Shown here: positions 32,893 through 64,000 of the stretch, piece after piece
How positions within the stretch are numbered: the stretch's first letter is position 1
How the letters are laid out: every line of letters begins with the position of its first letter
NCBI GenBank assembly: GCA_964387845.1
Contig: CAYLXA010000013.1
Location: 25,521-89,520 of the forward strand
Length of the DNA: 64,000 nt
DNA from: an uncultured bacterium
Lineage (GTDB): Bacteria; Omnitrophota; Omnitrophia; Omnitrophales; Abzuiibacteriaceae
Direction of reading: 5' to 3'
Notes under the pieces: model-generated
Seen by the model: only the letters and a program-made list of their open reading frames with translations
The model's database searches: none
What the model was told of the DNA's origin: nothing
Program-made: the position numbers and the translations under genes

Positions 32893-33522
32893 ATGGCGTT
32901 GTCCGATCTTTATAGCAATTTTCATTTGTTTTTCAGATGGCTTCACGTATTTGTCGGTATTATTTGGATCGGCCATCTGTATTTTTTCAATTTTGTGAAC
33001 GTCCCGCTTCAAGCCTCACTAGATGATGCCGGCAAGAAAGTCGTCAACCCAAAACTGATGCCGCGCGCACTTTGGTGGTTCCGCTGGGGCGCCATGCTCA
33101 CGTTTATTTCCGGGTTGATTCTTTATACGATGATTTACATGTATACGCCGGGAGCCGGATTTGGCCCTTCATCCGCGTTTCGTGATCTTTTCGGTAATAT
33201 TACGGGTAGATCAATTTGGATTTTAATCGGAATGTTATTTGGCACGATTATGTGGTTCAACGTGTGGTTTATTATTTGGCCTGCTCAGAAAGCTCTTTTA
33301 TCCGGAAAAGTTCCGGCCGATCAAGCCGCCGGCGTTCGCCGCAGAGCCTATTTGGCGTCACGTACAAATACCTATCTGTCGGGCCCCATGCTTTATGGTA
33401 TGTTGGCTCCGGGGCATTACGGCGCGTTTAGCTGGGTGACGTTTTTGGTGTTTGGTTTGGTGGCGGTGGCCTTGATTTTCCACGCCATTCAGAAATCCCC
33501 CAAAGTCGGTACGTCAGTTTGA
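32893..33522 (+). CDS. Polytopic membrane protein, possibly of the HemJ/UPF0093-like family
   Basis: The 209-aa protein has 4-5 TM helices. Its first helix has the F-W-L-H-x-F-V-G-I-I-W-I-G-H-L-Y-F pattern, reminiscent of HemJ-type proteins. An RBS GGAGGAGG sits 6 nt upstream. Family G repeats flank the gene on both sides. Confidence 0.55.
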   Translation: MALSDLYSNFHLFFRWLHVFVGIIWIGHLYFFNFVNVPLQASLDDAGKKVVNPKLMPRALWWFRWGAMLTFISGLILYTMIYMYTPGAGFGPSSAFRDLFGNITGRSIWILIGMLFGTIMWFNVWFIIWPAQKALLSGKVPADQAAGVRRRAYLASRTNTYLSGPMLYGMLAPGHYGAFSWVTFLVFGLVAVALIFHAIQKSPKVGTSV

Positions 33523-33527
33523 TCTAA

Positions 33528-33625
33528 TCGTTATTGCGAGGCGCCTTAATCAGCGTCGCGGCAATCCCTGTTCTGAGATTGCTTCGGCGTTAATCAACGC
33601 GCCTCGCAATGACAGTTCAATTTAT
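33528..33625. repeat. ~95-bp palindromic intergenic repeat (family G), copy 2
   Basis: ttattgcgaggcgcc ... agattgcttcggcgttaatcaacgcgcctcgcaatgac. It has the same architecture as copy 1 and sits between convergent genes. Confidence 0.7.
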
Positions 33626-43428: not shown

Positions 43429-44361
43429 ATGAGCAGCAGAATTTATAACTCCATCGAAGAAGAAATTGCGGCGCTGAAAAAAGAGCGAAACGCGATTATT
43501 CTGGCGCACAATTATCAAGTCGGCGAAATCCAGGACATCGCGGATTTCACGGGTGATTCGCTTAAACTTTCTCAGCAAGCGGCCAAAACGGATGCGGATG
43601 TTATTGTTTTTTGCGGCGTTCATTTTATGGCTGAGACTGCGAGTATTTTATCGCCCAACAAAAAAGTTCTGATCCCTGATATGGACGCCGGATGTTCACT
43701 TTCCGGAATGATTAAGCCCGAAGACGTTCGCAAATGGAAAGAAGCACATCCCAATGGTGTGGTTGTGACTTATGTCAATACCTCCGCGCAAGTCAAAGCC
43801 GAGTCTGACTATTGCTGCACGTCCTCCAATGCTGTGAAAGTGGTTGAAAGCATTCCGCGCGATAAAGAAATTCTGTTCGTTCCTGATTTTTATTTGGGAT
43901 CTTACGTTAAAAAGCAAACCGGCCGCACCAACATGACGGTTTGGAACGGTTATTGCCACGTTCACGTGATGATCAGCTCCCAAAAAATCGATGAAATGCG
44001 CCACGAACATCCGAAGGCGGAAGTTTTGATGCATCCGGAATGCAGCTGCATGACGAAAGTGATGGATAAAGCGGATCAAGTTTTATCAACGGAAGGCATG
44101 GTGAAGCATGTCCGTGATTCCAAGAAAAACGAATTTGTGATTGCGACTGAAACGGGCGTTATTCACAAAATGGAAAAAGAAAATCCCGGCAAAAAGTTTT
44201 ATCCGGCGGTTCAGCAGGCCGTTTGCGGTTACATGAAGCTCAACACGCTTGAGAAAATTGTACGCACACTTGAGAAATTGCAGTACGAAGTAAAAGTCCC
44301 GGAAGATATTGCGCGCCGAGCGCGTATTCCGATCGAAAGGATGCTTCAAATAGTTCCATAA
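43429..44361 (+). CDS. nadA: Quinolinate synthase
   Basis: The 310-aa NadA fold has three repeats. It starts directly at the thiC stop. Confidence 0.9.
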   Translation: MSSRIYNSIEEEIAALKKERNAIILAHNYQVGEIQDIADFTGDSLKLSQQAAKTDADVIVFCGVHFMAETASILSPNKKVLIPDMDAGCSLSGMIKPEDVRKWKEAHPNGVVVTYVNTSAQVKAESDYCCTSSNAVKVVESIPRDKEILFVPDFYLGSYVKKQTGRTNMTVWNGYCHVHVMISSQKIDEMRHEHPKAEVLMHPECSCMTKVMDKADQVLSTEGMVKHVRDSKKNEFVIATETGVIHKMEKENPGKKFYPAVQQAVCGYMKLNTLEKIVRTLEKLQYEVKVPEDIARRARIPIERMLQIVP

Positions 44362-44468
44362 ACTTAAATTCAAATATCAAATTTCAAATATCAAAATTTC
44401 GCTTGTTTCGAATTTTAAATTTTTGTGATTTGAATTTGTTTTTAATTTTGAAATTTGGATTTTGATAT
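44362..44468. repeat. AT-rich ~100-bp imperfect-palindrome repeat (family F), copy 1, upstream of ispG
   Basis: caaatatcaaatttcaaatatcaaaatttcgcttgtttcgaattttaaatttttgtgatttgaatttgtttttaattttgaaatttggattttgatatt. It is ~90% identical to the copy at 45535..45640. Confidence 0.7.
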
Positions 44469-45534
44469 TATGAATAAACGACGCAAATCCAGACAAGTTA
44501 CGATCGGCGGTTTAACGCTTGGCGGCAATGCCCCGATCCGAATTCAATCCATGACCACCACGCACACGCGCGATGTGGCCGCAACGGTGAAACAAATCAA
44601 TGAACTTGCTGAAGCCGGCTGCGAAATGGTCCGCGTCGCATGTCCCACGGAAGAAGATGCCAAATCACTTGGCGCTATCAAGAAGCAAATCAAAGTTCCG
44701 CTCATTGCAGATATTCATTTTAATTATAAACTCGCGTTAATTGCGCTTGAAGAAGGTGTTGATAAATTGCGCCTGAACCCGGGCAACATCGGCGGCCGAG
44801 ACCGCGTTGAAGCAGTTGTCGCAAAAGCCAAAGAGCGCAAAGTGCCGATCCGGATCGGCGTCAATGGCGGTTCGCTCGAGAAAGATTTGATGGAAAAATA
44901 TGGGCCGGTTCCGCAAGCGATTGTGGAAAGCGCGCTTCGCCACATCAAAATTTTAGAAGACGTTGATTTTCACGACATCATCGTATCGCTCAAAGCGAGC
45001 GATGTTCCGACGATGATTGAGAGTTACCGTCTGGCGGCCAAAGCATTTGATTATCCGCTTCATTTAGGTGTTACGGAAGCCGGAACATTACTTCGCGGCT
45101 CGGTCTATAACGCGATCGGCGTCGGAAGTTTGCTCTATGACGGTATCGGCGACACCATTCGAATTTCTCTCACGGCGGAATCTGTGGAAGAAGTGAAAGT
45201 TGCGCGTTTTATATTGGAAGCCATCGGCCACCGGAAATTCGGACCGCGCGTGATTGCGTGCCCGAGCTGCGGCCGTGCGGAAGTCGATGTCTTTAAACTC
45301 GCGAATGAAGTCGAAAACCGTGCGATGAAATTGAAAGACCCGATGGTGATTTCCGTTTTAGGCTGTGTCGTCAACGGCCCCGGCGAAGCGCACGAATCTG
45401 ATTTCGGCATCACGGGCGGGAAAGACAAAGGCATGGTTTATATTGATGGTCAGCAGCACAAAACAGTTCCCGAAGAAAAGTTGGTCGATGAACTTTTTAA
45501 CGAAATCGAAAAGAGAAAGAAAAAGCAACCGTAA
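44455..45534 (+). CDS. ispG: 4-hydroxy-3-methylbut-2-en-1-yl diphosphate synthase (MEP pathway)
   Basis: The 359-aa GcpE protein starts QVTIGGLTLGGNAPIRIQSMT and has the C-terminal Cys triad CPSCGR...GCVVNGPGE. Confidence 0.9.
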   Translation: MDFDIMNKRRKSRQVTIGGLTLGGNAPIRIQSMTTTHTRDVAATVKQINELAEAGCEMVRVACPTEEDAKSLGAIKKQIKVPLIADIHFNYKLALIALEEGVDKLRLNPGNIGGRDRVEAVVAKAKERKVPIRIGVNGGSLEKDLMEKYGPVPQAIVESALRHIKILEDVDFHDIIVSLKASDVPTMIESYRLAAKAFDYPLHLGVTEAGTLLRGSVYNAIGVGSLLYDGIGDTIRISLTAESVEEVKVARFILEAIGHRKFGPRVIACPSCGRAEVDVFKLANEVENRAMKLKDPMVISVLGCVVNGPGEAHESDFGITGGKDKGMVYIDGQQHKTVPEEKLVDELFNEIEKRKKKQP

Positions 45535-45640
45535 TATCAAAATTCAAATTTCAAATATCAAAATTTCGTTCGTTTCGAATTTTAAATTTTATAATTTGAA
45601 TTTGTTTTGAATTTTGATACTTGAGTTTTGAATTTATAAA
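45535..45640. repeat. AT-rich ~100-bp imperfect-palindrome repeat (family F), copy 2, downstream of ispG
   Basis: tatcaaaattcaaatttcaaatatcaaaatttcgttcgtttcgaattttaaattttataatttgaatttgttttgaattttgatacttgagttttgaattt. Confidence 0.7.
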
Positions 45641-46728
45641 TGAATTCAATCTTCCATAACCCTGAACTCTCCGATATCGCAGAAAAAGTCCGCAGCCAGA
45701 CGCGTCTTTCGTTCGAGGACGGTGTCCGGCTCTTCAAATCCAATGATCTTCCCTTGATTGGAAGATTGGCCCACGAAGTCAGAACGCGTCTTCACGGCAA
45801 AAAAGTTTTCTATTCCATAAACCTGCACATGAATCACACAAATGTTTGTACGGCCCGCTGTTTGTTTTGCGCGTTTGCGCGCAGGCCCCATGAAGAAGGC
45901 GGCTACACTTTTTCAGTCGAACAAATCAAAGATGCGGTCCGAAAAGCTGTTGAGCGCTACCACATTAATGAAGTTCATATTGTGGGCGGCTTAAATCCCG
46001 ATTTGGATTTCAATTATTACCTCGATCTTTTCCGGATGATTCACACGAATTGGCCGAATTTATTTATCAAAGCACTCACAGCGGTTGAGATCGATGACCT
46101 CGCCGTTAGGTTCAATATGAGCTGGGAAGATGTTTTGCAGCAACTCAAAGATGCCGGGTTAAGCGGGCTTCCGGGCGGGGGAGCCGAGATTTTCCAGGAA
46201 GAGCGGCGCAAACGGATTTGCGCGGATAAAACCACTTCCAAAAATTGGCTCGAAATTCACCGGATTGCGCACCGCCTCGGGCTTGATTCCAACTGTACGA
46301 TTCTCTACGGACATATTGAATCCATCGAAGACCGCGTGGATCACATTCTACGTTTACGCGCGCTTCAGGACGAAACAAGCGGCTTTAATTCATTCATTCC
46401 GCTCGCGTTTAACGCGGAAAATACGCCGATTGAGAAATTGGGCGAACCGGACGGCTTTACAGATTTAAAAATGTGTGCCATCGCGCGGCTTCTATTTGAT
46501 AATGTTCCGCACATCAAGCTGCACTGGACATCACTCGATTTAAAAATGGCATCCGTCGGCCTTTATTTTGGTGCCGATGATTTGGGCGGAACCAATATTA
46601 ATGAAAAAATCATGCACGATGCCGGTAACGAAACGCCGGTCGATATGACGGAAGAAAAATTTCGCGCGTTCATCGAAAAATCCGGTTTTGAGCCGGTTCT
46701 TGTGGATAGTTCTTATCAAACCGTTTAG
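45640..46728 (+). CDS. Radical SAM enzyme of the MqnE/MqnC/CofG/CofH family. It is probably a futalosine-pathway menaquinone synthase.
   Basis: The 362-aa protein has the CxxxCxFC cluster motif (CTARCLFCAF) and the family's TIM-barrel layout. The assignment within the family is uncertain. Confidence 0.65.
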   Translation: MNSIFHNPELSDIAEKVRSQTRLSFEDGVRLFKSNDLPLIGRLAHEVRTRLHGKKVFYSINLHMNHTNVCTARCLFCAFARRPHEEGGYTFSVEQIKDAVRKAVERYHINEVHIVGGLNPDLDFNYYLDLFRMIHTNWPNLFIKALTAVEIDDLAVRFNMSWEDVLQQLKDAGLSGLPGGGAEIFQEERRKRICADKTTSKNWLEIHRIAHRLGLDSNCTILYGHIESIEDRVDHILRLRALQDETSGFNSFIPLAFNAENTPIEKLGEPDGFTDLKMCAIARLLFDNVPHIKLHWTSLDLKMASVGLYFGADDLGGTNINEKIMHDAGNETPVDMTEEKFRAFIEKSGFEPVLVDSSYQTV

Positions 46729-48521: not shown

Positions 48522-48546
48522 ATACATTGTATATACATTGTATACA
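48522..48546 (+). promoter_or_regulatory. Tandem TATAC-ATT-GTATA palindromes overlapping the -10/TSS of the TA operon. Candidate antitoxin operator.
   Basis: atacattgtatatacattgtataca lies just upstream of the RBS GGAGGG. A -35 TTGACA sits at 48500..48505. Confidence 0.5.
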
Positions 48547-48558
48547 AGGAGGGATCTT

Positions 48559-48786
48559 ATGGTTAAGCATTTAACCCAGCATGGCAACAGTGCGGCATTA
48601 ATCATTGAGAAGCCGGTACTCGAGCTTCTAAATATCACCTTTGAAACTCCTCTGGAAATTGCTACGGATGGCAAAAATTTGATTATTTCGCCTATTTCGA
48701 AAGCGATACGTGAAAAGCAATTTCAAAAGGCGCTTGCGAGTGTTAATAAACGCCACGCAAAAACTTTAAAGCGTCTCGCTCGTTAA
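48559..48786 (+). CDS. AbrB/SpoVT-type (Phd-like) antitoxin
   Basis: The 75-aa protein reads MVKHLTQHGNSAALIIEKPVLELL, a swapped-hairpin AbrB-like N-terminus. It sits immediately upstream of doc. Confidence 0.65.
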   Translation: MVKHLTQHGNSAALIIEKPVLELLNITFETPLEIATDGKNLIISPISKAIREKQFQKALASVNKRHAKTLKRLAR

Positions 48787-48792
48787 TTTCCG

Positions 48793-49188
48793 GTGAAGGC
48801 GCCCAATTTTCTAACACTTGCCGAAATTCTCGAAATCCATAAAAATCAAATTGAACTTTATGGCGGGGAGACCGGTATGCGTGATTTAGGTCTTCTCGAG
48901 TCAGCTATTAATCAGCCGGAAGCAAGTTTTGGCGGTGAATGGCTGCATAAAACTATTTTTGAAATGGCAGCTGCTTACGCTTTTCATATTGCCAAGAATC
49001 ATCCGTTTGTCGATGGAAATAAACGCGCGGCGCTTGCGAGCGCTCTTGTGTTTCTTGAACTAAACGGAATTTCTGTTCGAGATTCAAAGGGAAAGTTGTA
49101 TGATGTCATGATTAAGCTTACGACTTCTCAAATCTCAAAACAAGAATTTGGAAAAATTTTGAAAAAAATGGAAAAGAAAAGTAAATGA
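48793..49188 (+). CDS. doc: Doc (death-on-curing) toxin of the Fic family
   Basis: It has the Fic/Doc motif [11 protein letters not shown]. The protein is 131 aa, starts at a GTG and begins 6 nt after the antitoxin stop. Confidence 0.8.
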
Positions 49189-53259: not shown

Positions 53260-53739
53260 ATGAAAATGGGCGAAGTAGTTTTATTTACACCGGAAGGTTA
53301 TGAAAAGTTAAAGGCAGAACTCAAATACTTAAAGGAAGTAAAGCGTGTCGAAGTTGCCAATCAGCTTGAGGTAGCGCGGGCGCACGGTGATTTGCGGGAA
53401 AACGCAGATTATGACGCAGCGAAAAATGCCAAATCCCATTTGGAAGGCCAGATAGCCAGGCTTGAAGAGAAGCTGATCAACGCAAAAGTGGTTGATGCCA
53501 AAGACGCACCGACAGACAAAATCTACTTTGGAACTTCCGCGGAACTAATGAATCACAAAACCAAGCAAAAGGTTGTGTTTTCATTTGTTGCGCAAGATGA
53601 AGCGGATATTGCAAAAAATAAAATCTCAATTAGTTCACCTATCGGAAAAGCGCTTTTAGGCCATGCGCCCGGCGAAAAAGTGAATGTCACGGTACCGGCC
53701 GGCGTTATTACATTCGAAATCCTTAAAATTTGGCGGTGA
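53260..53739 (+). CDS. greA: Transcription elongation factor GreA
   Basis: The 159-aa protein has the N-terminal coiled-coil motif AHGDLRENADYDAAK and a C-terminal FKBP-like domain. Confidence 0.85.
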   Translation: MKMGEVVLFTPEGYEKLKAELKYLKEVKRVEVANQLEVARAHGDLRENADYDAAKNAKSHLEGQIARLEEKLINAKVVDAKDAPTDKIYFGTSAELMNHKTKQKVVFSFVAQDEADIAKNKISISSPIGKALLGHAPGEKVNVTVPAGVITFEILKIWR

Positions 53740-53740
53740 A

Positions 53741-54091
53741 ATGAATCACAAATTACCAACCCTTCTCTTTCTTTCCGTCTTTTTATTGTCATTTGCTTCG
53801 CCTTCTTCCGCTATTCCTCCCCAAGTTGAAAAATTAAAACGCGGTGCTTGCAACATGATTTTAGGCGGTGTTGAAGTTCCGAAATATATGATCATCGAAG
53901 CGGCCAACGCCGAAAAGCCCCGATGGGCATCTTTGCGCGGTGTTTTCTATGGTTCGTTTAAAGGTGCAATTAAAGGCACTAAGCGGATTTTATCAGGCGC
54001 TTATGATGTACTTACATTTCCCATCAACTACCCAGATCATTATTCTTCGTTGGTTTCTCCCGATTATTTCACGTTTTCGGATATTGATTAA
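53741..54091 (+). CDS. Small secreted protein with a signal peptide (hypothetical)
   Basis: The 116-aa protein starts at the internal Met MNHKLPTLLFLSVFLLSFASPSSA. It carries two RG-containing Gly-rich motifs (KRGACNMILGG and LRGVFYGSFKG) and starts 2 nt after the greA stop. Confidence 0.5.
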   Translation: MNHKLPTLLFLSVFLLSFASPSSAIPPQVEKLKRGACNMILGGVEVPKYMIIEAANAEKPRWASLRGVFYGSFKGAIKGTKRILSGAYDVLTFPINYPDHYSSLVSPDYFTFSDID

Positions 54092-54172: not shown

Positions 54173-54240
54173 CAAAATTTGAACATTTCTCCCGCCCATG
54201 TTAACTTTTGATTAATAGAAGTCGTACTTAATGAATGATT

Positions 54241-54750
54241 ATGAAAACTCAATGTTCCAAAAAGGGCTTTACGTTGGCCGAAGTTTTGATCACGATCGCG
54301 CTGCTCGGCATTCTTGCTGCAATGGTGTTGCCACGTTTGACGGGGCAAACTGATAAGGCTAGAGCTGCTGAGGCGATTAATATGCTTGGTGCTATCCGAC
54401 AGGCCGAGATTTCTTACCGAAATGGTCCTGCAGGTGAATATCTTGGAATTCTTAACACAACTGACGGCGGCTGGTCTTGTGCGGATCCGGCTCTTTGGGC
54501 ACGTTTGGGCATTGGTGATCCAAATGGAAATCCCAATTCTTTATTTGGGTATTGTATAGACTGGACAGATGATCCTACTAGCGGTCCGGTTATATTTCGA
54601 GCAGTTGCGAGACGACTTAGTGCTGCAAATGCTGACGATGAAGTGATTACTTTAAATCAAGATGGAATTTGGGATGGTAATAGTCCCCATGTTCCTCAAA
54701 ATGAAGGTGGAGCAGATTGCGAGTCTAACTGGTTTCCTTGTTGGCCGTAG
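54241..54750 (+). CDS. Type IV pilin or pseudopilin (prepilin-type N-terminus)
   Basis: It has a class III signal, KKGF-TLAEVLITIALLGILAA, with F+1 and E+5 and a variable C-terminal domain. The start is set at MKTQ. Confidence 0.75.
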   Translation: MKTQCSKKGFTLAEVLITIALLGILAAMVLPRLTGQTDKARAAEAINMLGAIRQAEISYRNGPAGEYLGILNTTDGGWSCADPALWARLGIGDPNGNPNSLFGYCIDWTDDPTSGPVIFRAVARRLSAANADDEVITLNQDGIWDGNSPHVPQNEGGADCESNWFPCWP

Positions 54751-54759
54751 GATTTAAAT

Positions 54760-55230
54760 ATGCAAAATTCAAATAAAGGTTTTACGCTAACCGAACTTTT
54801 GATTACGATTGCTATCATTGGTATTTTGGCGGCAATTACGCTCCCGCGCTACTTTCAAACCGAAGCCGCGCGGGTTTCAGAAGCAACCTCTATGCTATCA
54901 ATGATACGTTTAGCAGAGGAAAGTTTTCAGGATCAAAATGGCTGCTATGCTTTAGTGGGTTCGTCAGGGACTTCATGCCCGACGCTCGGGGCCACTTGGA
55001 ATGCACTTGGAATAGAAATTCCTGCCAATAACTATTTTGATTACGAAATTGAAGCCGCCTCAGACACCACCTTTTGTGCATCTGCTACAAGAAATGGCAC
55101 AGGAAGTCCACCTGAAGAATATGAAGGTACTACAATTTGTATTGATGAAACCGGAGCTTTTTACGGTGACCATCCCAATGGGCCAAGCATTGGTTCGGCA
55201 TCGACAGGTGGTTGTAATACATTTTGCTAA
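54760..55230 (+). CDS. Type IV pilin or pseudopilin (prepilin-type N-terminus)
   Basis: [21 protein letters not shown] with E+5. The mature domain is 156 aa with Cys pairs. Confidence 0.75.
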   Translation: [156 protein letters not shown]

Positions 55231-55422
55231 TCAGGCATTTATTTTCTAGTATTTCCGGTCATTTTTTCTGTATAACTTCCATATAGCGCTTAAATAAGAT
55301 AATTCACACCGATTTCTCCGCATTGTTTTCATCTTCTGCCATGTTAAACTTTGTACAGGTTTGGCGGAAAGTAGAAATATAAGCTGTTTAAGGATTTCAG
55401 TTTTTATCAACTTTTACAAACT

Positions 55423-55944
55423 ATGACGCCAATAAGAAAAAATAAAAATTCAGAAAAAGGATTTACGCTGCTTGAAGTGATGGTTTCAGCGCTGGTTGTG
55501 TTAACTGCCGCCGCGATCAGCATGCAGCTTTTGCTTGCACCCAAAGAAAAAGTTGTAGAGCTTGAAATGCGCGCCGAAGTATCGCGCTATTTAAATACGC
55601 GCATTCAGGAAGTAAAAGACATGTCTTCGTTTCCGACAACAGGAATTGATGAACAGCACTATTGCAATCCAGGAACCGGGACTGGTTCTTGTAATGCCAA
55701 TATCTGTGGGAATATTTGTAATGCATACAGCAGCAAATGTGGCAGCGCATTAACGGATGATGCGCGGTTACGTGATATGATCAGCCGGATTCCGTCAATG
55801 TGTTTTGTCCACGTTGAAATGAACTTTGATTGCGGAGAACCAGTAGACAGTAGCGAAGCGACCCAGGTTTGTATCAAAGCAGAGTGGCCGAAGAAAGGAA
55901 GCGAGTATTATGAAGAAGCGCTCACTGCTTTTTTGGTTAAATAA
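55423..55944 (+). CDS. Minor pilin (PilV/FimT-like; prepilin N-terminal methylation domain)
   Basis: EKGF-TLLEVMVSALVVL with E+5. The 173-aa protein has a Cys-rich C-terminus. Confidence 0.65.
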   Translation: MTPIRKNKNSEKGFTLLEVMVSALVVLTAAAISMQLLLAPKEKVVELEMRAEVSRYLNTRIQEVKDMSSFPTTGIDEQHYCNPGTGTGSCNANICGNICNAYSSKCGSALTDDARLRDMISRIPSMCFVHVEMNFDCGEPVDSSEATQVCIKAEWPKKGSEYYEEALTAFLVK

Positions 55945-56572
55945 GTTGTTTTCGAGATCTGAAAGAGGCTTGAGTTTAATCGAGCTCATGGTCGCGATCA
56001 GCATTGTGCCGACCGTGATTTTCGCGTCATCTAATTTTCAGCTCTACTCCAGCAAAATCATGAACAATACCTACGACCGTGGTATGCGCTTGTCCGAACA
56101 AATTGTTATATTTCAATACCTAGAACGGACGATGATCAATGGCTCTTCTGCTATTACTCCAGTCGATTATCAAGGGTATCAAGCTTATACCGCGTGCCCA
56201 AATTCTAGTGATTTTAGTTGGAATAATAGATTGGTTATCAATTTGCCTACTAGTAGCGGTGCTGGCCAACCACCGGTTATTTATGATTTTCTGAAAAATT
56301 GTGGGGACACCGCTGCTCTTCTGCAAGTTACCTATGACATGAACGGAGATAGCCTGATTACGGCAAGCGAATTTACCAAAATTTCGTATTTTGGATCTGT
56401 TGATTATCCGGATGAAACTCCAGGTTTTACGGGAAGCAACAACGTGCCGTTTGTTTATGATACAGACAATAAAAAAGTTACAGTGAGACTTGGATTTAAG
56501 TCAACCGATCCAAATAGCCCGAAAATTACGGTTCCTTTGGAAATTAAATTGAGCGGAGGAAGCGGAACATGA
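55910..56572 (+). CDS. Minor pilin (PilW-like; prepilin N-terminal methylation domain)
   Basis: ERGL-SLIELMVAISIV with E+5. The 220-aa protein overlaps its neighbours in the way minor-pilin operons do. Confidence 0.6.
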   Translation: MKKRSLLFWLNKLFSRSERGLSLIELMVAISIVPTVIFASSNFQLYSSKIMNNTYDRGMRLSEQIVIFQYLERTMINGSSAITPVDYQGYQAYTACPNSSDFSWNNRLVINLPTSSGAGQPPVIYDFLKNCGDTAALLQVTYDMNGDSLITASEFTKISYFGSVDYPDETPGFTGSNNVPFVYDTDNKKVTVRLGFKSTDPNSPKITVPLEIKLSGGSGT

Positions 56573-59500
56573 AATTAATTCATCGCCGAGAATCCGGTTA
56601 TGCGCTTGCGGTGGTGATGTTTGTCCTCGCATTGTGGATTCCGGCTAGCTTAATTCAGGGTTATTTGAAGAATGCCCACATGATCAAGAACCTGTCAAAA
56701 CAGATTTCGGATACCAATCTTAAGTGGGCCACAGAATCAATTGCTAATCGCGCAATGTTTAATTTAAAAAATGCCATTCAGAACAACGGCCTTGATGATT
56801 GCATGTTTTGTCCGCCGACGGACGCAAATCCTCTTTGCGGTAGTTCAACACCTTCCGGCGGAGGAGGATGCCATGTGGCCGGTGTCGAGACTAATTCATT
56901 GGAATGGTTTAACGATATTGATGATACGGTGCCCGGCGTTGGTTTTCAGCAGTCGTTTTTAAATTTTCTTACACCAAACTCAGCATATCTTGCTTCCACA
57001 GTGCAAAGTACCGAAGTTTTGGAATTAAGTGTGAGAGCACTTGAAAATCCTTCACCGGCATCCGGTGTTGCAGTTTTTGATATTGGTGCGAAAGTAAAAC
57101 TTTCGGACCAGGTTGGAAATTTAACGTCCGGTATCAATCAACAATTTAGAATCCGATCGTCTAATATAGCAAGCTTTTCAATTTTCCTTGCTTGCGGCCA
57201 AGATTTTGTGGTGTCTCCGGGCACCAATACGCGTTTGGAAGGACCTATTTACGTTTGTGAAAATGCATTTTTAACACCCAACAAGAACACGGCACTGACC
57301 ATTGCATGTCCGGATTGCGATCGAAATAATCCCGATCCAAACATGTATGCATTGAAAACCAGCGGATCTATTATGTGGGGCGGGCCGGTAAAGATTGGCC
57401 AAACGCCGCCTACCCAAAATAATGCTACAAAACCTTATGAAACAGACGTGTACGGAAAACCCGTTCGTTATCAATTTTTGAGTAATATTGATTCGGGGTG
57501 GACGGGATTTGATACGACTCCGGGAATTGATGGGGCAGAAGCATTGAAGACAAGTATCATTGAAGTGCAAGATGTCCACGGAACCCAAGCAAGTCCTCAA
57601 TTTACGAGATTGATCGGCATGAATACAGCCACAGATCCCATTAGAGCTCCTCCGATTAAATTTGAATTTCTACGCGGCCCTGATCAGCACGTGCCGCCAA
57701 CCACCGCCCATACACCATTGGCTAATTTAAATACGGCGCCTTCCAATACAAACGTTCCAGCTAATAATGTTGTTGTTAATACTTCGCTTGCTTATGACTC
57801 GTTGAATCCAGAGCTTGTAGCGCCATTTATGAGCTCTGAAAATCAAATCTGGCGAAACTTTTTGGATAGTCATTTCCGGACCAGTGTAACGGATATTTAT
57901 TTTTTAGAAGACAAAGCCGCTCTCAGGACTTTGCAAATCGGTTCCGCAAATCCGCGAGATTTAATTGAGTTTGCATCTGATTCTGACAACAGTATTCTTA
58001 AAAATGTAAAGTTTCAATGGGTTGCATTCAACGCGCATAGATATGATCCGAATTTACCGGATCCGCATATTGCCAATTCATCCAGTGATTTTGCGGGTAT
58101 CTCGCTTGATTTTAGAAAGTACGGCTGTACCGGGTCTGTATGCACCGATACAACTACTATTAAAGGAGAAAACCCAACCAATTGGGGGGGCGCGAACGGA
58201 TTTTTGAATTTCCCATCAGTTACTTATCAAGACTGGCGGCGCGGACAATTTCCCATTAAAATTGTCGAATTGGATGTTGGAGCGCTAAAAGATTTGATCG
58301 TTCTGCCGGATGCGGATCCTCCTTCACCAAACGCTACGTATCCATTTCCCCGAAAACCTTTTGTTTTGTATATTGGTTTTGATACCAATTTATCCGCCCC
58401 ATATCATATTTTAAATTCGGTGTTGCGGATCAAGAATGCAGCTGAGTTGCCAGTGAACGGTTTAACCATCGCAACAAATGGATTTGTCCAAATTCAGGGT
58501 GATTACAATATAACAGGCACACCGCCCAGCCATGGCCCCGGCTCAGGGGATGTGTGCGGCATGATTCCGGCTGCGGTTGTGGCAGATCAAATCATGGTTC
58601 TTTCGAATAGCTGGCAGGATTGGACCAATTCAGGGCCGAATGCTCCGGCTTCGTTCGAAGATCCCTTTGTTGGCCCTGGTACAACTTTTCCGGCAGTTGA
58701 CAGTAATCCTAACCTGACGGGTATTCAGCCTTATCCAAAGCATAATTTCAGGTCGCATGTGATTTATCCAAACAAAAATGTGACAGTCAATGCTGTCTTG
58801 GTAGCCGGCGGTCTTAATGAGAAGTTGGAGCCTATGGATGTAGCAAGTTCTTTAGCGCGTTCTTTTGATGTAAATCCATTAACAGGATATTCATATGGAC
58901 AGCTTATGTTAAATAATCTCGTATTTCCATGGACTCGGTTTCCATATTTGAGAAATCGGCGCTTATCACAGGATAATACAGGCGTTTGTCCATTTTCTCC
59001 GGGCATTTTTCCGGAAGTTGGAACGCCGCCAACGGCTGCTACTAACCCCGAGTGTTTTGATGTTTCCGGTATCACGAGAATTAAAAGCAATAATTGGAGA
59101 AACACAAGAGTCCAAATCATTGATTATGAACCGCCTGCCGGAAGTTGTAATGGAAATTCACCTTGTATTATTGATTTGGGCCCTATCGGCGATGTTGCTA
59201 CTGCCATTACTATCGGAAGCCAAACTTACAAAGGCTTTTTATATGGCTGTACTTCTTGTAATGGTATGCCAGGCTATACTAGCGCAGCTGATCTTAACGA
59301 TAATATACCGCTTTATATTAAAGTAGATGAAAATGGACGCCATGTGGCGCCTTGTAATCCGGATGGTTTTACGCCTGCCGGAACAGTTGCCTGCGATGAT
59401 CCTTCTGTTGCTGGGTTTTTAAACACGTCTGTGGTTAGTTTGGAAACTGCACATCTTATAACAAAAGTAGAAAATGTTAGCGGAAGCTGGGTCGTGACTT

Positions 59501-60375
59501 CTCCCGATATAGTTCCGGTACCAAATTCACCAGTGAGTCCCAGTGAATACGACTATACGCAGGTGAAGCCAGGCGCCCGGTTTGCAGCTTTTGCACGGCA
59601 CACTTATGATCCTGCGTATCCAAATAATGCGCGCCGCTTGATCATGCCCGATAGTATCACTTTAGGTTGTTGCACAACAAGCGGAGGGTCAACCAGCTGC
59701 CCTTACGTATGTGACGGAAACCCTCCCGGATGCAGCGTAGGTAATATTGGTTCAAACTGTAGTTATTCAACTTATTGTCCGAGTTGTGCCGCAAATATCT
59801 GTGGTGGTGAGGGATGTACGCAATCACCACAAGTGAATCCAAGCTCACTGACCTGCACTGGCATGGGATGGCAATGTCCAACAGCTACAAACGGTTTAGG
59901 CACCTGTTCTACTAGCTGTGCAGTTTCCGGACAAAGTGTTCCAAACCCATACCCCGTGATTCGATATTCAAAAGGAGGTAATACCAGACAAATGGCAGCT
60001 GATCCCTTCAGTGTAACGGCAATGAAATTTGTCTATCTCCCTTATTATGTGCAAAGATACAGCGGCGGGTTTGAAAATATGATCCGTTTTGGGGAAGATT
60101 GGGTTTCTTGGAATTGTTCCGGAAATCCTGCGTCTTGTACGCCATTAACAACCTCAAGGTCGGTAGAATTAAACGGTTCAGTTCATAAGCTTTGGGAATC
60201 TGTAACGCTCAAGAAAGCGGATAACACTTCATTTGCATATTGGGCTCCTGATACATACACGGCACCGAACAGAATTTTCCAATATTCGAGTGAGCTGAAA
60301 CATGAAGAATGCGTGCCACCGGCTATGCCGCGCGCAACGCCTGAAAGCGAAGATTTGAATGTGAGGAGATTTTAA
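56569..60375 (+). CDS. Large pilus-associated protein with a PilX-like N-terminal anchor (1268 aa). Possibly a tip adhesin.
   Basis: The N-terminus is RRESGYALAVVMFVLALWI, a PilX-N-like hydrophobic segment without E+5. It is followed by a long extracellular region that is Cys-rich toward the C-terminus. It sits at the pilX/pilY1 position of a fimU-pilVWXY1E-like operon. Confidence 0.55.
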   Translation: MKLIHRRESGYALAVVMFVLALWIPASLIQGYLKNAHMIKNLSKQISDTNLKWATESIANRAMFNLKNAIQNNGLDDCMFCPPTDANPLCGSSTPSGGGGCHVAGVETNSLEWFNDIDDTVPGVGFQQSFLNFLTPNSAYLASTVQSTEVLELSVRALENPSPASGVAVFDIGAKVKLSDQVGNLTSGINQQFRIRSSNIASFSIFLACGQDFVVSPGTNTRLEGPIYVCENAFLTPNKNTALTIACPDCDRNNPDPNMYALKTSGSIMWGGPVKIGQTPPTQNNATKPYETDVYGKPVRYQFLSNIDSGWTGFDTTPGIDGAEALKTSIIEVQDVHGTQASPQFTRLIGMNTATDPIRAPPIKFEFLRGPDQHVPPTTAHTPLANLNTAPSNTNVPANNVVVNTSLAYDSLNPELVAPFMSSENQIWRNFLDSHFRTSVTDIYFLEDKAALRTLQIGSANPRDLIEFASDSDNSILKNVKFQWVAFNAHRYDPNLPDPHIANSSSDFAGISLDFRKYGCTGSVCTDTTTIKGENPTNWGGANGFLNFPSVTYQDWRRGQFPIKIVELDVGALKDLIVLPDADPPSPNATYPFPRKPFVLYIGFDTNLSAPYHILNSVLRIKNAAELPVNGLTIATNGFVQIQGDYNITGTPPSHGPGSGDVCGMIPAAVVADQIMVLSNSWQDWTNSGPNAPASFEDPFVGPGTTFPAVDSNPNLTGIQPYPKHNFRSHVIYPNKNVTVNAVLVAGGLNEKLEPMDVASSLARSFDVNPLTGYSYGQLMLNNLVFPWTRFPYLRNRRLSQDNTGVCPFSPGIFPEVGTPPTAATNPECFDVSGITRIKSNNWRNTRVQIIDYEPPAGSCNGNSPCIIDLGPIGDVATAITIGSQTYKGFLYGCTSCNGMPGYTSAADLNDNIPLYIKVDENGRHVAPCNPDGFTPAGTVACDDPSVAGFLNTSVVSLETAHLITKVENVSGSWVVTSPDIVPVPNSPVSPSEYDYTQVKPGARFAAFARHTYDPAYPNNARRLIMPDSITLGCCTTSGGSTSCPYVCDGNPPGCSVGNIGSNCSYSTYCPSCAANICGGEGCTQSPQVNPSSLTCTGMGWQCPTATNGLGTCSTSCAVSGQSVPNPYPVIRYSKGGNTRQMAADPFSVTAMKFVYLPYYVQRYSGGFENMIRFGEDWVSWNCSGNPASCTPLTTSRSVELNGSVHKLWESVTLKKADNTSFAYWAPDTYTAPNRIFQYSSELKHEECVPPAMPRATPESEDLNVRRF

Positions 60376-63056
60376 TGAAGTGGCTCCAGCGGTTTAAACT
60401 GATAAAAGGAATCACGTTATTCGAATTGATCGTTGTTATTGCGATCATTGGAATATTGGCAGCCGTCGGTGTTCCAAGTTTTGAAAGCATGATCAAAAAG
60501 CGTGAGCTCAAGAATGCAAGCGAAAATCTTTTCTCCATTCTAAACGGAATTCGTTCATGGGAACTCCAGCATCCTCAATCTTTATTCCCCGGAGAAGTGT
60601 ACGATGCTGATTTTTGGGTAAATAATTGGAAGTCTAATTTAACGTCCCAATATCTCAGCAAAATGAACGACAAAACACCCGATAACCCTCTTTTACTTAC
60701 ATTGGAAAGTGGGGTTCGGAAAATAGAGTACTATTTAGCGCCTCATGCGGCTGATTTTCTCCACATTTATGGTACATATTCGGTAAATAATAATCCGCAG
60801 GGTTTTGTTTATCTAACTTATGACGGAATTTTGAGTACCGAATCAGTCGTGCCAGGCACATGTCCTAACGGAGTGTTGGGCCCTGGAGAGCAATGCGAAA
60901 ATGATTTTCATTGCGCTGGTGTAGCGACCTGTAACACAGCGACATGCACTTGTTCGGGCGGGGGCGGTTCATGCGGAGATGGGACTGTCAATAACGGTGA
61001 ACAATGCGATGATAACAACACTATATCCGGCGATGGCTGCAGCTCAACGTGTCGAGATGAAGTCTGCGGTGACGGCATTAAACAGGATGACGAGGGTTGC
61101 GATGGCAACCCAAATCAGTGTCCTCCGATTGCGGGTAATAATGTAGTTTGTACAACTGCCTGCGAATGTTCTTATAGTCCGATTGGAAATGCTTTGTGCG
61201 GTGACGGAACTGTTACTGCTCCGGAATTGTGTGACCGTGGAAATTTGCCGATTATTCCAGCTATTGGATGTCCTGTTGGATCGGTTTGTGCTGGCGATTG
61301 CAAGTCTTGTTGTGGTGACGGTATTTTAACGCCATCTAGTTCAGAAGTTTGCGATATCGGTGTCGGGTGCGGAGCAATCACGGGTTCTGTTTGTAATTCA
61401 ACTTGTTCTGCCTGCGAATGTCCGTCGGGAGAAAGTGAGAATCCGCCGGGTTCAGGCCATTGTTGTCCGACGGGAACCTCATGGAACGGATCAAGCTGCA
61501 GCGCTTGCGGGAATAACGCGCTGGATGTTGGCGAGATTTGCGACGAGTCGGCTTTTCCCAACGGCTGTCCGTTTGATCAGGAGTGTAACGCTGCTTGTAA
61601 TGCATGTTCCTGTCCGGCCGGAACTGCTTTGAGCAATTATCATTGCTGCCCGGTCGGTTCAGTGTGGAACGGCCATGACTGTACGACTTGCGGTGACGGC
61701 GTAAAATCCGGCTGGGAACAGTGCGATCCAACCGATCCTGATGCAGCAGATCAAACGTGTACGCCTTACACGCCGTCCGGCCTACCGGGTTGCGGCATGA
61801 TGGGAAAATCCGAACGTTACTCTTTGCAAAGCGGTTCAGTTGAAGAAATTTTATCCGAACAAATGTCTTATTATAACCTTTCTAAATCAGGCCCGGCACC
61901 GATGGCAGACCCTTGTCCGCCTGGTTCGCCTCAACCGAGATATTGTCAGGAGTGCTTATGTGTTCCCGGATCAGGCGGAATTTGCGGCAATAATCTTCTG
62001 GAAACAGGCGAGCAATGCGACGACGGCAATACAACTTCAGGTGATGGCTGCAGTGCAAGCTGTCAGCAGGAATATTGTGGTGACTCAGTCATTCAACCTG
62101 GTTTAAATGAGCAGTGCGACAATAGCGCTTGTGCCCCCAATCCGAACCCTCCTCCGCTTGGGACACCTCTATTTTGTATGAACTGTCAATGCCAGTGTGT
62201 GCCATTTTTGTGTAGTCAGGGCAGTGTTCCTAATATGGAAACTTGTTCGTGCGATCCGATGCCTTGTGATAGTACATCCGATTGCGATGATCAAAATGAA
62301 TGTACGGATGATAGCTGTGATTTAACCGCGGGGCATTGCGTATTTGATGGCACCGGCATGAACGGTCTGGCTTGCGATGATGGAGATATCTGCACAACAG
62401 GTGAACAATGCGACGCCGGAATTTGTATCGGCGGAACAGCCACATCGTGCGATGACGGAAATCCGTGCACAACCGACGTATGTGATTATGATACCGGCTG
62501 TATAAATCAAAATTTACCGAATGGAACTTCCTGCGCTGACGCAGATTTGTGTGATGGCGATGAAGTTTGTGATAACTTTGGCGTTTGTCAACCCGGAGTG
62601 TCGGTGGTCTGCACAGCGCTGGATCAATGTCATGACGTTGGCGTTTGCGATCCGGGAACCGGTGTCTGCTCGAATCCTATCAAAGCCGACGGCACAAGTT
62701 GTGTTCATCCGAATTCAAGCCAAACGTGGGATCATGACGGTAATCCCGGCACTCCTGAAATCCCGGTGTATGATAACGAATGTTATCTCCAGGAATGTAT
62801 CGCTGGCGCATGTCAATTTACAACCGGTTTATATGATTCAAATGAATGTGATTATGATGGACTACCGCAAAGCGGCTGTAACTATGAAACATGCAGCGCT
62901 GGATGGTGTATTCCGGATACTCCCGGCTGTCCCGGCGGCAGTTGCGTAGATTGTCCCAACCAAATCGGATCGCCAATTGCAGCATGCGGCGGCTCTCTTT
63001 GCGCTCAGTCTTCTGCCGATCCGCTTGACCCCAGTTTGGGGTATTGCTGCGCATAA
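60375..63056 (+). CDS. Giant type IV pilin (893 aa). A prepilin N-terminus is fused to a ~740-aa Cys-rich repeat domain made of Myxococcus-type and Dictyostelium/EGF-like repeats.
   Basis: [20 protein letters not shown] with E+5. Myxococcus-type units: [27 protein letters not shown] at ~60969..61075 and [27 protein letters not shown] at ~61982..62088. A Dictyostelium/EGF-like unit [13 protein letters not shown] is also present. This gene is last in the operon. Confidence 0.7.
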   Translation: [893 protein letters not shown]

Positions 63057-63102
63057 TACGGCTAATCGCCGATTTACACCTAAAAATAATCTAAAAATAA
63101 TG

Positions 63103-63131
63103 TTGACATAGATTTTATCTAATCATATAAT
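63103..63131 (+). promoter_or_regulatory. Perfect consensus sigma70 promoter, TTGACA-17-TATAAT
   Basis: ttgaca at 63103..63108, a 17-nt spacer, then tataat at 63126..63131. It lies 335 nt upstream of the 16S 5' end. Confidence 0.6.
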
Positions 63132-63277
63132 CTCTCACTTTTGGGAGAGGCTCTGAGTAGTAATTCCTACCATAGTTGTAAGTCCCATACGGTCATTAAT
63201 AAATTAAATTTTGTGATTGCAGAAGACGATAAATTGGTTCGTCGTCTTTATTGAAAACTTTTGTCTTAAAAATAAAG

Positions 63278-63330
63278 GACGCCCTTACTTAGAAAAGGGC
63301 GTCCTTTATTTTCTGTTTTTTTGCTCTTTC
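63278..63330 (+). promoter_or_regulatory. boxB-like hairpin followed by a boxA-like TGCTCTTTC in the rRNA leader. Alternatively it is an intrinsic terminator.
   Basis: aaaggacgccctt acttagaa aagggcgtccttt is a perfect 13-bp stem. It is followed by attttctgtttttt, then tgctctttctta, which resembles the boxA consensus GCTCTTTAACAA. Confidence 0.45.
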
Positions 63331-63437
63331 TTATAGTTTGAATTTGTGCGAGGGTCAATGTCTCAACATATGAGTCCAAGTCAGTTGAGCTTCATATATA
63401 TGTATGAAGTTTGATTGACGAAAGATTCAAATACTAA

Positions 63438-64000
<563 letters not shown>

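What the first reader, a model, noticed from the sequence alone, without database searches (positions are those of the whole stretch)
60375..63056. The giant pilin and the 3628-aa protein share the same uncommon Cys-rich repeat types
The unit CGDGxxxxxE(Q/T)CDDGN(T)xSGDGCSxxC occurs at ~60969..61075 and ~61982..62088 in the pilin. It also occurs at ~24990..25075 in the giant protein, where it reads ICGDGLVVGNETCDDGNTASGDGCSSIC.

Both proteins also carry arrays of CDDGNxCTxDxC-type units. This points to modular exchange of adhesive cassettes between a fibre subunit and a cell-surface protein that lie 30 kb apart.
Basis: seen in the sequence. Interest (0 to 1): 0.7.

Follow-up and report, generated by a model that had tools for sequence, protein, structure and literature searches.

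The report
Cys-rich modular pilin in Omnitrophota
A pilus subunit and a huge surface protein of an uncultivated Omnitrophota bacterium do carry the same two cysteine-rich repeat types, but these are widespread catalogued domain families, and the DNA shows no recent swap between the two genes.

Summary
The 893-aa prepilin-type protein (60375..63056) has two full CGDG..E.CDDGN..GDGC...C units, at 60972..61052 and 61983..62063. The 3628-aa protein (20371..31257, minus strand) has one, at 24988..25068. Both also carry CDDGNxC(T/N)-type arrays.

These are known families: TIGR02232/PF13948 (Myxococcus cysteine-rich repeat, DUF4215) and PF00526 (Dicty_CTDC). One unit hits 20,223 protein clusters, so "uncommon" is wrong.

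The dot-plot test is negative for recent exchange:
- The units are 59-64% identical in DNA.
- Synonymous sites look saturated.
- The best cross-gene match is 50 nt at 76%.
- The units are no closer to each other than to units from unrelated organisms.

The gene is best read as a modular type IV minor pilin. A Cys-free pilin module is fused to a roughly 730-aa acidic region with 100 Cys. It closes a six-gene pilin operon.

Sister genomes show the operon is a hypervariable island: 26-51% protein identity between flanks that are 85-89% identical in DNA. Cassette number and order differ in both proteins. So mosaic, cassette-like evolution is supported, but direct exchange between these two genes is not. 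One weak hint remains unresolved.

It is a new member of a known kind, of modest interest.

The parts
60375..63056 (+). Gene for the 893-aa modular prepilin-type protein (the 'giant pilin'). Its start overlaps the upstream stop (TAATG), and a GAGGAG Shine-Dalgarno sequence lies upstream.
   Evidence: ORF list and translation; junction sequence; TIGR02532, TIGR02232, PF13948 and PF00526 hits
60375..60860 (+). Pilin module, aa 1-162, with no cysteine. Leader is [12 protein letters not shown]; the predicted mature N-terminus is ITLFE... with Glu5; a hydrophobic alpha1-N helix follows.
   Evidence: TIGR02532 scores 17.6 against a cut-off of 16.3. N-terminal matches to solved pilins reach 8e-7. The AF2 module model has helix 15-65 plus 4 strands but pLDDT is only 56.
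60972..61052 (+). Full TIGR02232/DUF4215 unit 1: [27 protein letters not shown]
   Evidence: i-E 1.4e-11
61065..61727 (+). Region of half units (CGDGxxxxxExCD at aa 231, 275, 313, 378, 439), including two HCCP..WNG..C..CG units (aa 362, 423)
61983..62063 (+). Full TIGR02232/DUF4215 unit 2: [27 protein letters not shown]. A half unit follows at aa 568. The full unit is conserved in the orthologue P0002.
   Evidence: i-E 3.2e-12
62283..62699 (+). Dicty_CTDC-type array (units at aa 637, 667, 692, 720 plus degenerate units)
   Evidence: PF00526 at 27.4 bits; unit parsing
62700..63053 (+). C-terminal Cys-rich tail assigned to no family
20371..31257 (-). Gene for the 3628-aa surface protein. It has an N-terminal signal/anchor helix, three right-handed beta-helix / choice-of-anchor-Q modules, TSP3-like linkers, a PKD-like domain and an InlB-B-like domain. 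It lies directly upstream of the nuo operon.
24988..25068 (-). The single full TIGR02232/DUF4215 unit of the giant protein: CGDGLVVGNETCDDGNTASGDGCSSIC
   Evidence: i-E 4.6e-10
21133..22413 (-). Dicty_CTDC-type array of the giant protein: 14 units in three ~150-aa super-repeats (aa 2949-3375). The super-repeats are 57-61% identical to one another.
54235..56572 (+). Four upstream prepilin-type genes of the same operon: 54235..54750, 54760..55230, 55423..55944, 55910..56572
   Evidence: PF07963/TIGR02532 hits
56569..60375 (+). 1268-aa protein with an N-terminal hydrophobic segment lacking Glu5. It has no Pfam or NCBIfam family and a Cys-rich region near the C-terminus. It is syntenic in both relatives.
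53260..53739 (+). greA, the conserved left flank of the variable pilus operon (94% aa and 85% nt identity to the JGI relative)
63076..64000 (+). rRNA upstream region and start of 16S rRNA (63438..64000). This is the conserved right flank: 86% nt identity to the JGI relative and 89% to the Logan relative.

Best explanation
**What the pilin is.** ORF 60375..63056 encodes a modular type IV (minor) pilin of an uncultivated Omnitrophota bacterium.
- A class III signal peptide and a Cys-free pilin module occupy aa 1-~162.
- This is fused to a ~730-aa acidic region (13.7% D+E, 1.4% K+R) with 100 cysteines.
- That region is built from small disulfide-knot repeats: TIGR02232/DUF4215 units (2 full, 6 half), two HCCP-WNG units and 4-5 Dicty_CTDC-type units.
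- It is the last, translationally coupled gene of a six-gene pilin operon.

**What the giant protein is.** The 3628-aa protein is an N-terminally anchored beta-helix surface protein. It happens to carry one DUF4215 unit and 14 CTDC units.

**What the sharing means.** The two proteins share widespread extracellular repeat families, not recently exchanged DNA.

**Shown.** Family membership, absence of DNA-level identity, operon context, synteny, and extreme divergence with cassette rearrangement between sister genomes.

**Inferred.**
- A prepilin peptidase cleaves after Gly12.
- The alpha1 helix docks the protein into the pilus. Because of its bulk, this is at the tip, together with the minor pilins and the 1268-aa protein.
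- The Cys-rich stalk is displayed for attachment to a surface or a host/prey cell.
- Diversifying selection, together with repeat duplication, loss and shuffling from a lineage-wide pool of such modules, makes both proteins mosaics.
For: **Family membership.** TIGR02232, PF13948 and PF00526 score above their curated cut-offs in both proteins. The custom HMM hits only these two ORFs in the window.

**Pilin identity.**
- TIGR02532 scores above its cut-off.
- N-terminal matches to GspG/GspH/PilA models and to solved pilins, best 9egp at 8e-7.
- Four further prepilin genes lie upstream.
- The start overlaps the upstream stop as TAATG, with a GAGGAG Shine-Dalgarno sequence.
- All 100 Cys lie after aa 162.

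**No recent exchange.**

**Commonness of the repeat.** 20,223 clusters.

**Taxon.** All named NuoL relatives except one (a Planctomycetes entry) are Candidatus Omnitrophica/Omnitrophota.

**Synteny and divergence.**
- The Logan relative L001 keeps the 182/216/1271/894-aa gene order.
- In the JGI relative L085, identity to the window is: GreA 94%, pilins 50/51%, minor pilins 28/26%, large protein 30%, giant pilin 28%.
- Flanking DNA is 85-89% identical, and similarity collapses between 54.2 and 63.06 kb.

**Cassette maps differ.**. The JGI giant protein has Flg_new repeats in place of the CTDC array.

**Literature.**
- Modular pilins are a described, widespread class, probably tip-exposed (PMC8179133).
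- Type 4a pili and large adhesin-like ORFs are common in Omnitrophota and have been linked to host attachment (PMC10066038).
Against: - The pilin fold of aa 35-162 is not established. The full-length AF2 model has pLDDT 29 and the module model pLDDT 56. The best Foldseek hit, the minor pilin PilV 5v23, has E = 0.24, which is not significant.
- PF07963 scores below its gathering score: 18.4 against 21.2.
- No homologue of the globular part of the pilin module was found beyond alpha1.
- No pilus machinery gene or prepilin peptidase lies in the window.
- Tip location, adhesion and disulfide bonding are all inference.
- The comparison set of foreign units came from proteins retrieved by similarity to the pilin, so it is biased. 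Units of 27 aa also carry little phylogenetic signal.
- One pair hints at a specific pilin-giant link. Window pilin unit 1 against a unit of the JGI giant protein is 22/27 aa and 62/81 nt identical, and the two share the motif CDDNNTIS.
Confidence: 0.65

Rival explanations
1. The pilin and the giant surface protein exchange adhesive cassettes by recombination or gene conversion within the genome, with the giant protein acting as a cassette reservoir.
For: - Both carry the same two repeat families.
- Both are mosaics whose cassettes differ between sister genomes.
- Window pilin unit 1 is as close to a unit of the JGI giant protein as true orthologous units are to each other: 22/27 aa, 77% nt and 64% identical codons, against 67% identical codons for orthologous pairs.
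- That pair shares CDDNNTIS, which occurs in 0 of 449 foreign units.
- Identical codons are enriched, P = 0.039. Only 0.9-1.6% of foreign units reach 22/27.
- At that position the Logan orthologue has a degenerate unit.
Against: - Within the window the units are 59-64% identical in DNA and synonymous sites look saturated.
- No cross-gene match exceeds 50 nt at 76%.
- There is no flank similarity around the hinting pair.
- That hint does not survive correction for the roughly 6-15 pairs compared.
- Foreign units reach 23/27 identity to the same pilin unit.
Confidence: 0.1
2. The 893-aa protein is not a filament subunit. It is a cell-surface or periplasmic protein held by an uncleaved pilin-like N-terminal helix, or a type II secretion-like pseudopilin that never leaves the periplasm.
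For: - Only the N-terminal ~60 residues match pilins.
- The fold is not confirmed.
- N-terminal matches include GspG and GspH.
- A 730-aa module with 50 possible disulfides is bulky for export through a secretin.
Against: - The class III motif is canonical: KG|ITLFE with Glu5.
- Operon position is conserved, with four other prepilins and a large partner protein, in three genomes.
- Bulky modular pilins and PilY1-type tip proteins are documented (PMC8179133).
- Extreme divergence is typical of exposed proteins.
Confidence: 0.15
3. The resemblance is only compositional: Cys/Asp/Gly-rich low-complexity sequence with no homology.
For: The repeats are short and dominated by C, D, G and N. PF00526 is only marginal on the pilin, at 27.4 bits against a cut-off of 27.
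Against: - TIGR02232 E-values are 1.5e-20 and 3.8e-11.
- An HMM from unrelated proteins finds only these two ORFs among 1176.
- Spacing of all Cys and of the CDDGN and GDGC cores is conserved.
Confidence: 0.02

Closest known systems
Modular type IV pilins (Raynaud et al. 2021, PNAS, PMC8179133; e.g. Streptococcus sanguinis PilB with a vWA module and PilC with a lectin module)
   Same: An N-terminal class III signal and pilin module is fused to a bulky module that is not specific to pili. It is a minor pilin encoded in a pilin operon and is presumed to be tip-displayed and adhesive.
   Different: The grafted region is a ~730-aa array of Cys-rich repeats with 100 Cys. IPR011936/PF13948 and IPR001673/PF00526 appear in none of the 264 architectures of that paper's Dataset S1. 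The host is Omnitrophota. No structure or function has been tested.
TIGR02232 / PF13948 (DUF4215), the Myxococcus cysteine-rich repeat (IPR011936)
   Same: Both proteins score above the curated cut-offs. The units match the family consensus [27 protein letters not shown] at 19-21 of 27 positions.
   Different: Copy number is low: 2 full units in the pilin and 1 in the giant protein, against up to 52 elsewhere. The pilin also has truncated half units. Among the 120 best hits, fusion to a prepilin N-terminus occurs only in this protein and its orthologue.
PF00526 Dicty_CTDC (Dictyostelium slime-mould repeat). From my own knowledge, it is known from spore-coat and extracellular-matrix proteins.
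   Same: The ~24-28-aa CxDxxxC(T/N)xxxC...GC units are arranged in tandem arrays, and both proteins reach the gathering score.
   Different: These are bacterial proteins. The pilin score is marginal. The giant protein uses mostly a CNGxExC variant that the window pilin lacks, although one unit of the JGI pilin has it.
Divergent minor-pilin/PilY1 operons and pilin islands of type IVa pili, e.g. Pseudomonas fimU-pilVWXY1E alleles (own knowledge, not tested here)
   Same: An operon of several minor pilins plus a very large partner protein. Alleles differ strongly between close relatives while the flanks are conserved.
   Different: The 1268-aa protein matches no PilY1 model or any other family. 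The large adhesin-like module sits on a pilin itself.

Membership tests
Type IV pilin / prepilin (class III signal peptide) | Short basic leader ending in Gly, followed by ~20 hydrophobic residues with Glu at +5 | tested here: met
   [34 protein letters not shown]. TIGR02532 scores 17.6 bits against a cut-off of 16.3. PF07963 scores 18.4, below its cut-off of 21.2. Alpha1-N aligns to solved pilins with E down to 8e-7.
Type IV pilin / prepilin (class III signal peptide) | Globular pilin fold: alpha1-C packed on an antiparallel beta-sheet | tested here: inconclusive
   The AF2 module model shows helix 15-65 plus 4 strands (116-157), but pLDDT is 56. The best Foldseek hit is the minor pilin PilV 5v23 at E = 0.24. 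The full-length model has pLDDT 29.
Type IV pilin / prepilin (class III signal peptide) | Encoded with other pilins or pilus genes | tested here: met
   Four prepilin-type genes and a 1268-aa partner lie directly upstream. The same order is found in L001 and L085. No machinery genes lie in the window.
Type IV pilin / prepilin (class III signal peptide) | Cleavage and N-methylation by a prepilin peptidase, and incorporation into a filament | not testable with these tools
   Needs biochemistry or proteomics. The prepilin peptidase gene is not in the window.
Modular pilin (sensu Raynaud et al. 2021) | A pilin module plus at least one additional domain not specific to type IV filaments | tested here: met
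   N-terminal prepilin motif plus PF13948/TIGR02232 and PF00526.
TIGR02232 / PF13948 (DUF4215) cysteine-rich repeat | Score above the curated cut-off; the pattern CG[DN]G-x5-6-E-x-CDDGN-x3-GDGC-x3-C | tested here: met
   Pilin: 72.7 bits (TIGR02232) and 29.7 bits (PF13948). Giant protein: 42.6 and 36.5 bits. Cut-offs are 20.8 and 27. Units are listed.
PF00526 Dicty_CTDC | Score above the gathering score; tandem ~24-aa Cys repeats | tested here: met
   Giant protein 34.2 bits; pilin 27.4 bits (marginal); cut-off 27. Arrays are parsed.
Recently exchanged (recombined or gene-converted) cassettes between the two loci | DNA identity clearly above that expected from protein conservation, extending over a cassette, with low synonymous divergence | tested here: not met
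   Unit identity is 59-64% nt. Identical codons are 47% against ~39% expected. The longest shared word is 17 nt against 11-16 nt in shuffles. The best cross match is 50 nt at 76%.
Recently exchanged (recombined or gene-converted) cassettes between the two loci | Units of the two proteins are each other's closest relatives compared with units from other organisms | tested here: not met
   19% and 61% of 429 foreign units are at least as similar. One cross-genome pair, window pilin unit 1 against a JGI giant-protein unit, lies in the top 1-2%. This is inconclusive on its own.
PilY1 / PilX / GspK-type tip proteins (for the 1268-aa neighbour) | Match to PilY1 beta-propeller, PilX_N or GspK models | tested here: not met
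   No Pfam or NCBIfam family at E <= 0.01. The only likeness is an N-terminal hydrophobic segment without Glu5.

The most novel reading that the evidence does not exclude
The Cys-rich pilin is the host- or prey-recognition tip adhesin of an Omnitrophota type IV pilus. Its specificity is re-programmed by shuffling small disulfide-knot cassettes drawn from other surface proteins of the same genome, including the 3628-aa protein. This would be a domain-cassette analogue of pilE/pilS variation. It would explain both the hypervariable operon between conserved flanks and the one pilin unit that resembles a giant-protein unit of a sister genome.
Probability: 0.1. Interest if true: 0.6.

Novelty: new member of a known kind. 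Interest (0 to 1): 0.3.

Why it matters
As stated, the finding is ordinary: two secreted proteins that share widespread repeat families. What is worth keeping is the gene itself and its locus.

- **The gene.** It is an 893-aa pilin whose displayed part is about 50 potential disulfides' worth of Cys-rich repeats. This architecture is not in the published catalogue of modular pilins.
- **The locus.** The gene sits in a pilus operon that has diverged to 26-51% protein identity between relatives whose flanking genes are 91-94% identical.
- **The organism.** Omnitrophota are uncultivated and thought to attach to other cells. For them, this is a concrete candidate attachment determinant and a marker of diversifying selection.

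It opens no new principle.

Tried and rejected
- **Scans for more operons.** I scanned genome contigs and metagenome contigs with the alignment of the 1268-aa protein. No confirmed relative was found.
- **Taxonomy from ThiC.** The best GTDB hits were only 76% identical and taxonomically scattered, so this was uninformative. NuoL worked instead.
- **Source contig.** The exact-match look-up of the pilin's own contig found nothing on record. The cluster look-up gave no names.
- **Pilin module homologues.** A search with aa 1-162 returned only six short pilins that match alpha1, with E around 1e-4.
- **Structure.** The full-length AlphaFold2 model was unusable, with pLDDT 29. The module model was weak, and the Foldseek search against PDB had no hit at E <= 1e-3.
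- **PDB sequence search.** No solved structure exists for the Cys-rich repeats.
- **Pure compositional resemblance.** Considered and rejected.
- **An adhesin island linking the two genes.** Considered and rejected. The intervening 29 kb holds housekeeping genes: peroxiredoxin, Nudix, sulfite reductase, ThiF, CysK-like, ThiC, NadA, IspG, Mqn, ABC-F, QueF and GreA.

Full report
**Observation**

ORF 60375..63056 (+) encodes 893 aa. ORF 20371..31257 (-) encodes 3628 aa.

- pilin aa 200-226, window 60972..61052
- pilin aa 537-563, window 61983..62063
- giant protein aa 2064-2090, window 24988..25068

The match is more than chance:
- NCBIfam TIGR02232 ("cysteine-rich acidic repeat", myxo_disulf_rpt) scores 72.7 bits on the pilin and 42.6 bits on the giant protein, against a cut-off of 20.8.
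- Pfam PF13948 (DUF4215) scores 29.7 and 36.5 bits, against a cut-off of 27.
- PF00526 (Dicty_CTDC) scores 27.4 and 34.2 bits, against a cut-off of 27.
- I built an HMM from 422 units of unrelated proteins and searched all 1176 six-frame ORFs of the window. It finds only these two ORFs.

The pilin additionally has six half units (CGDGxxxxxExCD) and two HCCP..WNG..C..CG units. Its CTDC-type units lie at aa 637-~775. The giant protein has 14 such units in three ~150-aa super-repeats at aa 2949-3375.

They are not uncommon. A 43-aa query around unit 2 hits 20,223 of 1.84 billion cluster representatives at E <= 1e-3, with up to 52 copies per protein. The full-length search returned 997 hits among only 8000 scored candidates.

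- blastn with 7-nt words gives, as the best cross-gene match, 50 nt at 76%. The repeat finder gives further matches of 37 nt at 70% and 29 nt at 83%.
- The three full units are 59-64% identical in DNA.
- At identical residues only 47% of codons are identical, against about 39% expected from codon usage.
- The longest shared word is 17 nt (the CDDGNT core), against 11-16 nt in codon-shuffled controls.
- At protein level the pilin-to-giant unit identities are 19/27 and 17/27. Of 429 units from unrelated proteins, 19% and 61% are at least as similar.

There is therefore no sign of recent recombination, and no special kinship between the units of the two genes in this window.

One caveat applies. 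The foreign units come from proteins retrieved by similarity to the pilin, and 27-residue units carry little phylogenetic signal.

**What the gene is**

The N-terminus is [32 protein letters not shown], a canonical class III signal with Glu5.
- It passes TIGR02532.
- It aligns to GspG, GspH and PilA models and to solved pilins, best E = 8e-7.
- PF07963 is just below its cut-off.

Residues 1-162 contain no cysteine. Residues 163-893 contain 100 cysteines (13.7%), and that region is strongly acidic.

The gene is the last of an operon:
- four prepilin-type genes at 54235..54750, 54760..55230, 55423..55944 and 55910..56572
- a 1268-aa protein at 56569..60375, with no Pfam or NCBIfam family and an N-terminal hydrophobic segment without Glu5

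The pilin start overlaps the upstream stop (TAATG), behind a GAGGAG Shine-Dalgarno sequence.

The fold of the pilin module could not be confirmed:
- Full-length AF2 gave pLDDT 29.
- The module model gave pLDDT 56. It shows a long helix at 15-65 and four strands.
- Its only suggestive Foldseek hit is the Neisseria minor pilin PilV, at a non-significant E = 0.24.

**Organism and context**

NuoL homologues that carry names are Candidatus Omnitrophica/Omnitrophota, apart from a single Planctomycetes entry, at 55-66% identity (73% for one partial entry). The window ends in the first 563 nt of a 16S rRNA gene.

Between the two genes lie about 29 kb of housekeeping genes, and the giant gene sits directly upstream of the nuo operon. 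This is not an adhesin island.

Omnitrophota commonly encode type 4a pili and large adhesin-like ORFs. Both have been linked to attachment to other cells (PMC10066038).

**Related loci**

Three relatives are informative.

1. *Logan contig L001 (SRR18669186).* It carries the same gene order. Its 894-aa orthologue is 49% identical. Nearly all Cys and unit 2 are conserved, but unit 1 is degenerate.

2. *JGI contig Ga0268299_1000036, pilus locus.* NuoL is 91% and GreA 94% identical to the window. The locus is syntenic: greA, a TIGR04073-family gene, four prepilins, a 1277-aa protein and an 813-aa prepilin-type Cys-rich protein. Identities to the window fall steeply along the operon:

| Protein | Identity to window |
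|---|---|
| GreA | 94% |
| Two pilins | 50% and 51% |
| Two minor pilins | 28% and 26% |
| Large protein | 30% |
| Giant pilin | 28% |

DNA similarity is 85% in greA and 86-89% in the rRNA upstream region. It collapses between 54.2 and 63.06 kb. The operon is therefore a hypervariable island between conserved flanks.

3. *Cassette content differs.*

| Pilin | DUF4215-type units | HCCP-WNG units | CTDC units |
|---|---|---|---|
| Window (the Logan orthologue is nearly the same, with 9 DUF4215-type units) | 8 | 2 | 4 |
| JGI | 4 | 1 | 8, six of them directly after the pilin module |

The JGI orthologue of the giant protein is 3181 aa. It is 49-56% identical in the shared parts. Where the window protein has its CTDC array, the JGI protein has about ten Flg_new/InlB-B repeats, and it has two DUF4215 units.

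Both proteins are therefore mosaics that gain, lose and rearrange repeat cassettes.

**An unresolved hint**

Window pilin unit 1 and one unit of the JGI giant protein are unusually close:
- They share 22/27 residues, 62/81 nt and 14/22 identical codons. True orthologous unit pairs show the same level: 21/27 residues, 62/81 nt and 14/21 identical codons.
- Other non-orthologous pairs in the lineage average 50/81 nt, with SD 1.7.
- The two units share CDDNNTIS, which is absent from 449 foreign units.
- The codon excess has P = 0.039. Only 0.9-1.6% of foreign units reach 22/27.

Against this, there is no flank similarity. After allowing for the number of pairs inspected, the hint is not significant. 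I record it as a lead, not a result.

**Mechanism**

Inferred from what is established for type IV pilins and modular pilins (PMC8179133):
- The leader is cleaved after Gly12.
- Alpha1 inserts the protein into the filament. Given its bulk, this is most plausibly at the tip, together with the other minor pilins and the 1268-aa protein.
- The disulfide-rich acidic stalk is presented outward for adhesion.

The steep divergence fits diversifying selection on an exposed recognition surface.

**Comparison with the known**

Modular pilins are a described class of more than 1200 proteins in 264 architectures. None of the listed architectures contains IPR011936/PF13948 or IPR001673/PF00526. Among the 120 best hits to this protein, only it and its orthologue have a prepilin N-terminus.

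This is a new member, with a new module combination, of a known kind. The finding as stated (shared uncommon repeats pointing to exchange) is largely ordinary.

**Verdict**

Mosaic evolution holds. Recent exchange between the two loci does not.
- Interest is 0.3.

Noticed in passing
window 54235..63056; L085 11248..19972; L001 504..8202: The whole six-gene pilin operon is a hypervariable island. Protein identity to two genus-level relatives is 26-51%. The flanks are far more conserved: greA is 94% identical in protein and 85% in DNA, and the rRNA upstream region is 86-89% identical in DNA.
   Followed up: yes
window 56569..60375: A 1268-aa protein is translationally coupled to the giant pilin and matches no Pfam or NCBIfam family. 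It has an N-terminal hydrophobic segment without Glu5 (GspK/PilX-like?) and a Cys-rich patch near the C-terminus. Syntenic homologues are 30-39% identical (BLAST). Genome and metagenome scans found no others.
   Followed up: partly
L084 1..4138 versus window 21133..22413: The JGI orthologue of the giant protein lacks the CTDC array at the corresponding position. It carries about ten Flg_new/InlB-B-type repeats there instead. Precomputed Pfam hits place a weak Dicty_CTDC hit earlier in that protein, outside the fetched DNA.
   Followed up: partly
window 60972..61052 versus L084 (JGI giant protein, C-terminal fragment aa 504-530): Pilin unit 1 resembles a giant-protein unit of the sister genome as closely as orthologous units resemble each other (77% nt, shared CDDNNTIS). 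It resembles the window's own giant-protein unit much less (63% nt).
   Followed up: partly
window 32739..32822 and 33530..33613: An ~84-94-nt element occurs in two copies (75% identical) flanking ORF 32893..33522. Each copy is itself a hairpin with termini GTCATTGCGAG...CTCGCAATGAC. It may be a REP- or MITE-like element.
   Followed up: no
window 36987, 37549, 46733 (direct); 37982, 46774 (inverted): A ~31-34-nt intergenic repeat, AGTTGTAAGTGGTAAGTG.TAAGT, recurs in five intergenic places at 79-91% identity.
   Followed up: no
window 44360..44478 and 45527..45644: AT-rich ~120-nt intergenic repeats (80-88% identical, with internal inverted repeats) lie on both sides of ispG (44455..45534).
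   Followed up: no
window 9860..9913 (-): An nhaA-I riboswitch scores 44.1 bits against a gathering score of 37. It lies directly upstream of the GT20 (otsA-like) gene 8335..9816. In the JGI relative the operon continues with a trehalose phosphatase, TreT, MscS and a Na+/H+ exchanger.
   Followed up: no
window 53684..54091: A TIGR04073 family (exosortase system-associated) protein is encoded between greA and the pilin operon. It overlaps the end of greA in another frame. It is conserved at 59% in the JGI relative.
   Followed up: partly
window 48538..49188: Two small adjacent ORFs of 82 and 131 aa look like a toxin-antitoxin pair. The second has a Fic/Doc-like appearance. Neither was checked against any library.
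   Followed up: no
window 20371..31257 (-), aa ~150-1960: The giant protein has three tandem ~530-600-aa right-handed beta-helix / choice-of-anchor-Q modules, separated by Asp-rich TSP3-like linkers. DNA patches between modules reach about 74-77% identity.
   Followed up: partly
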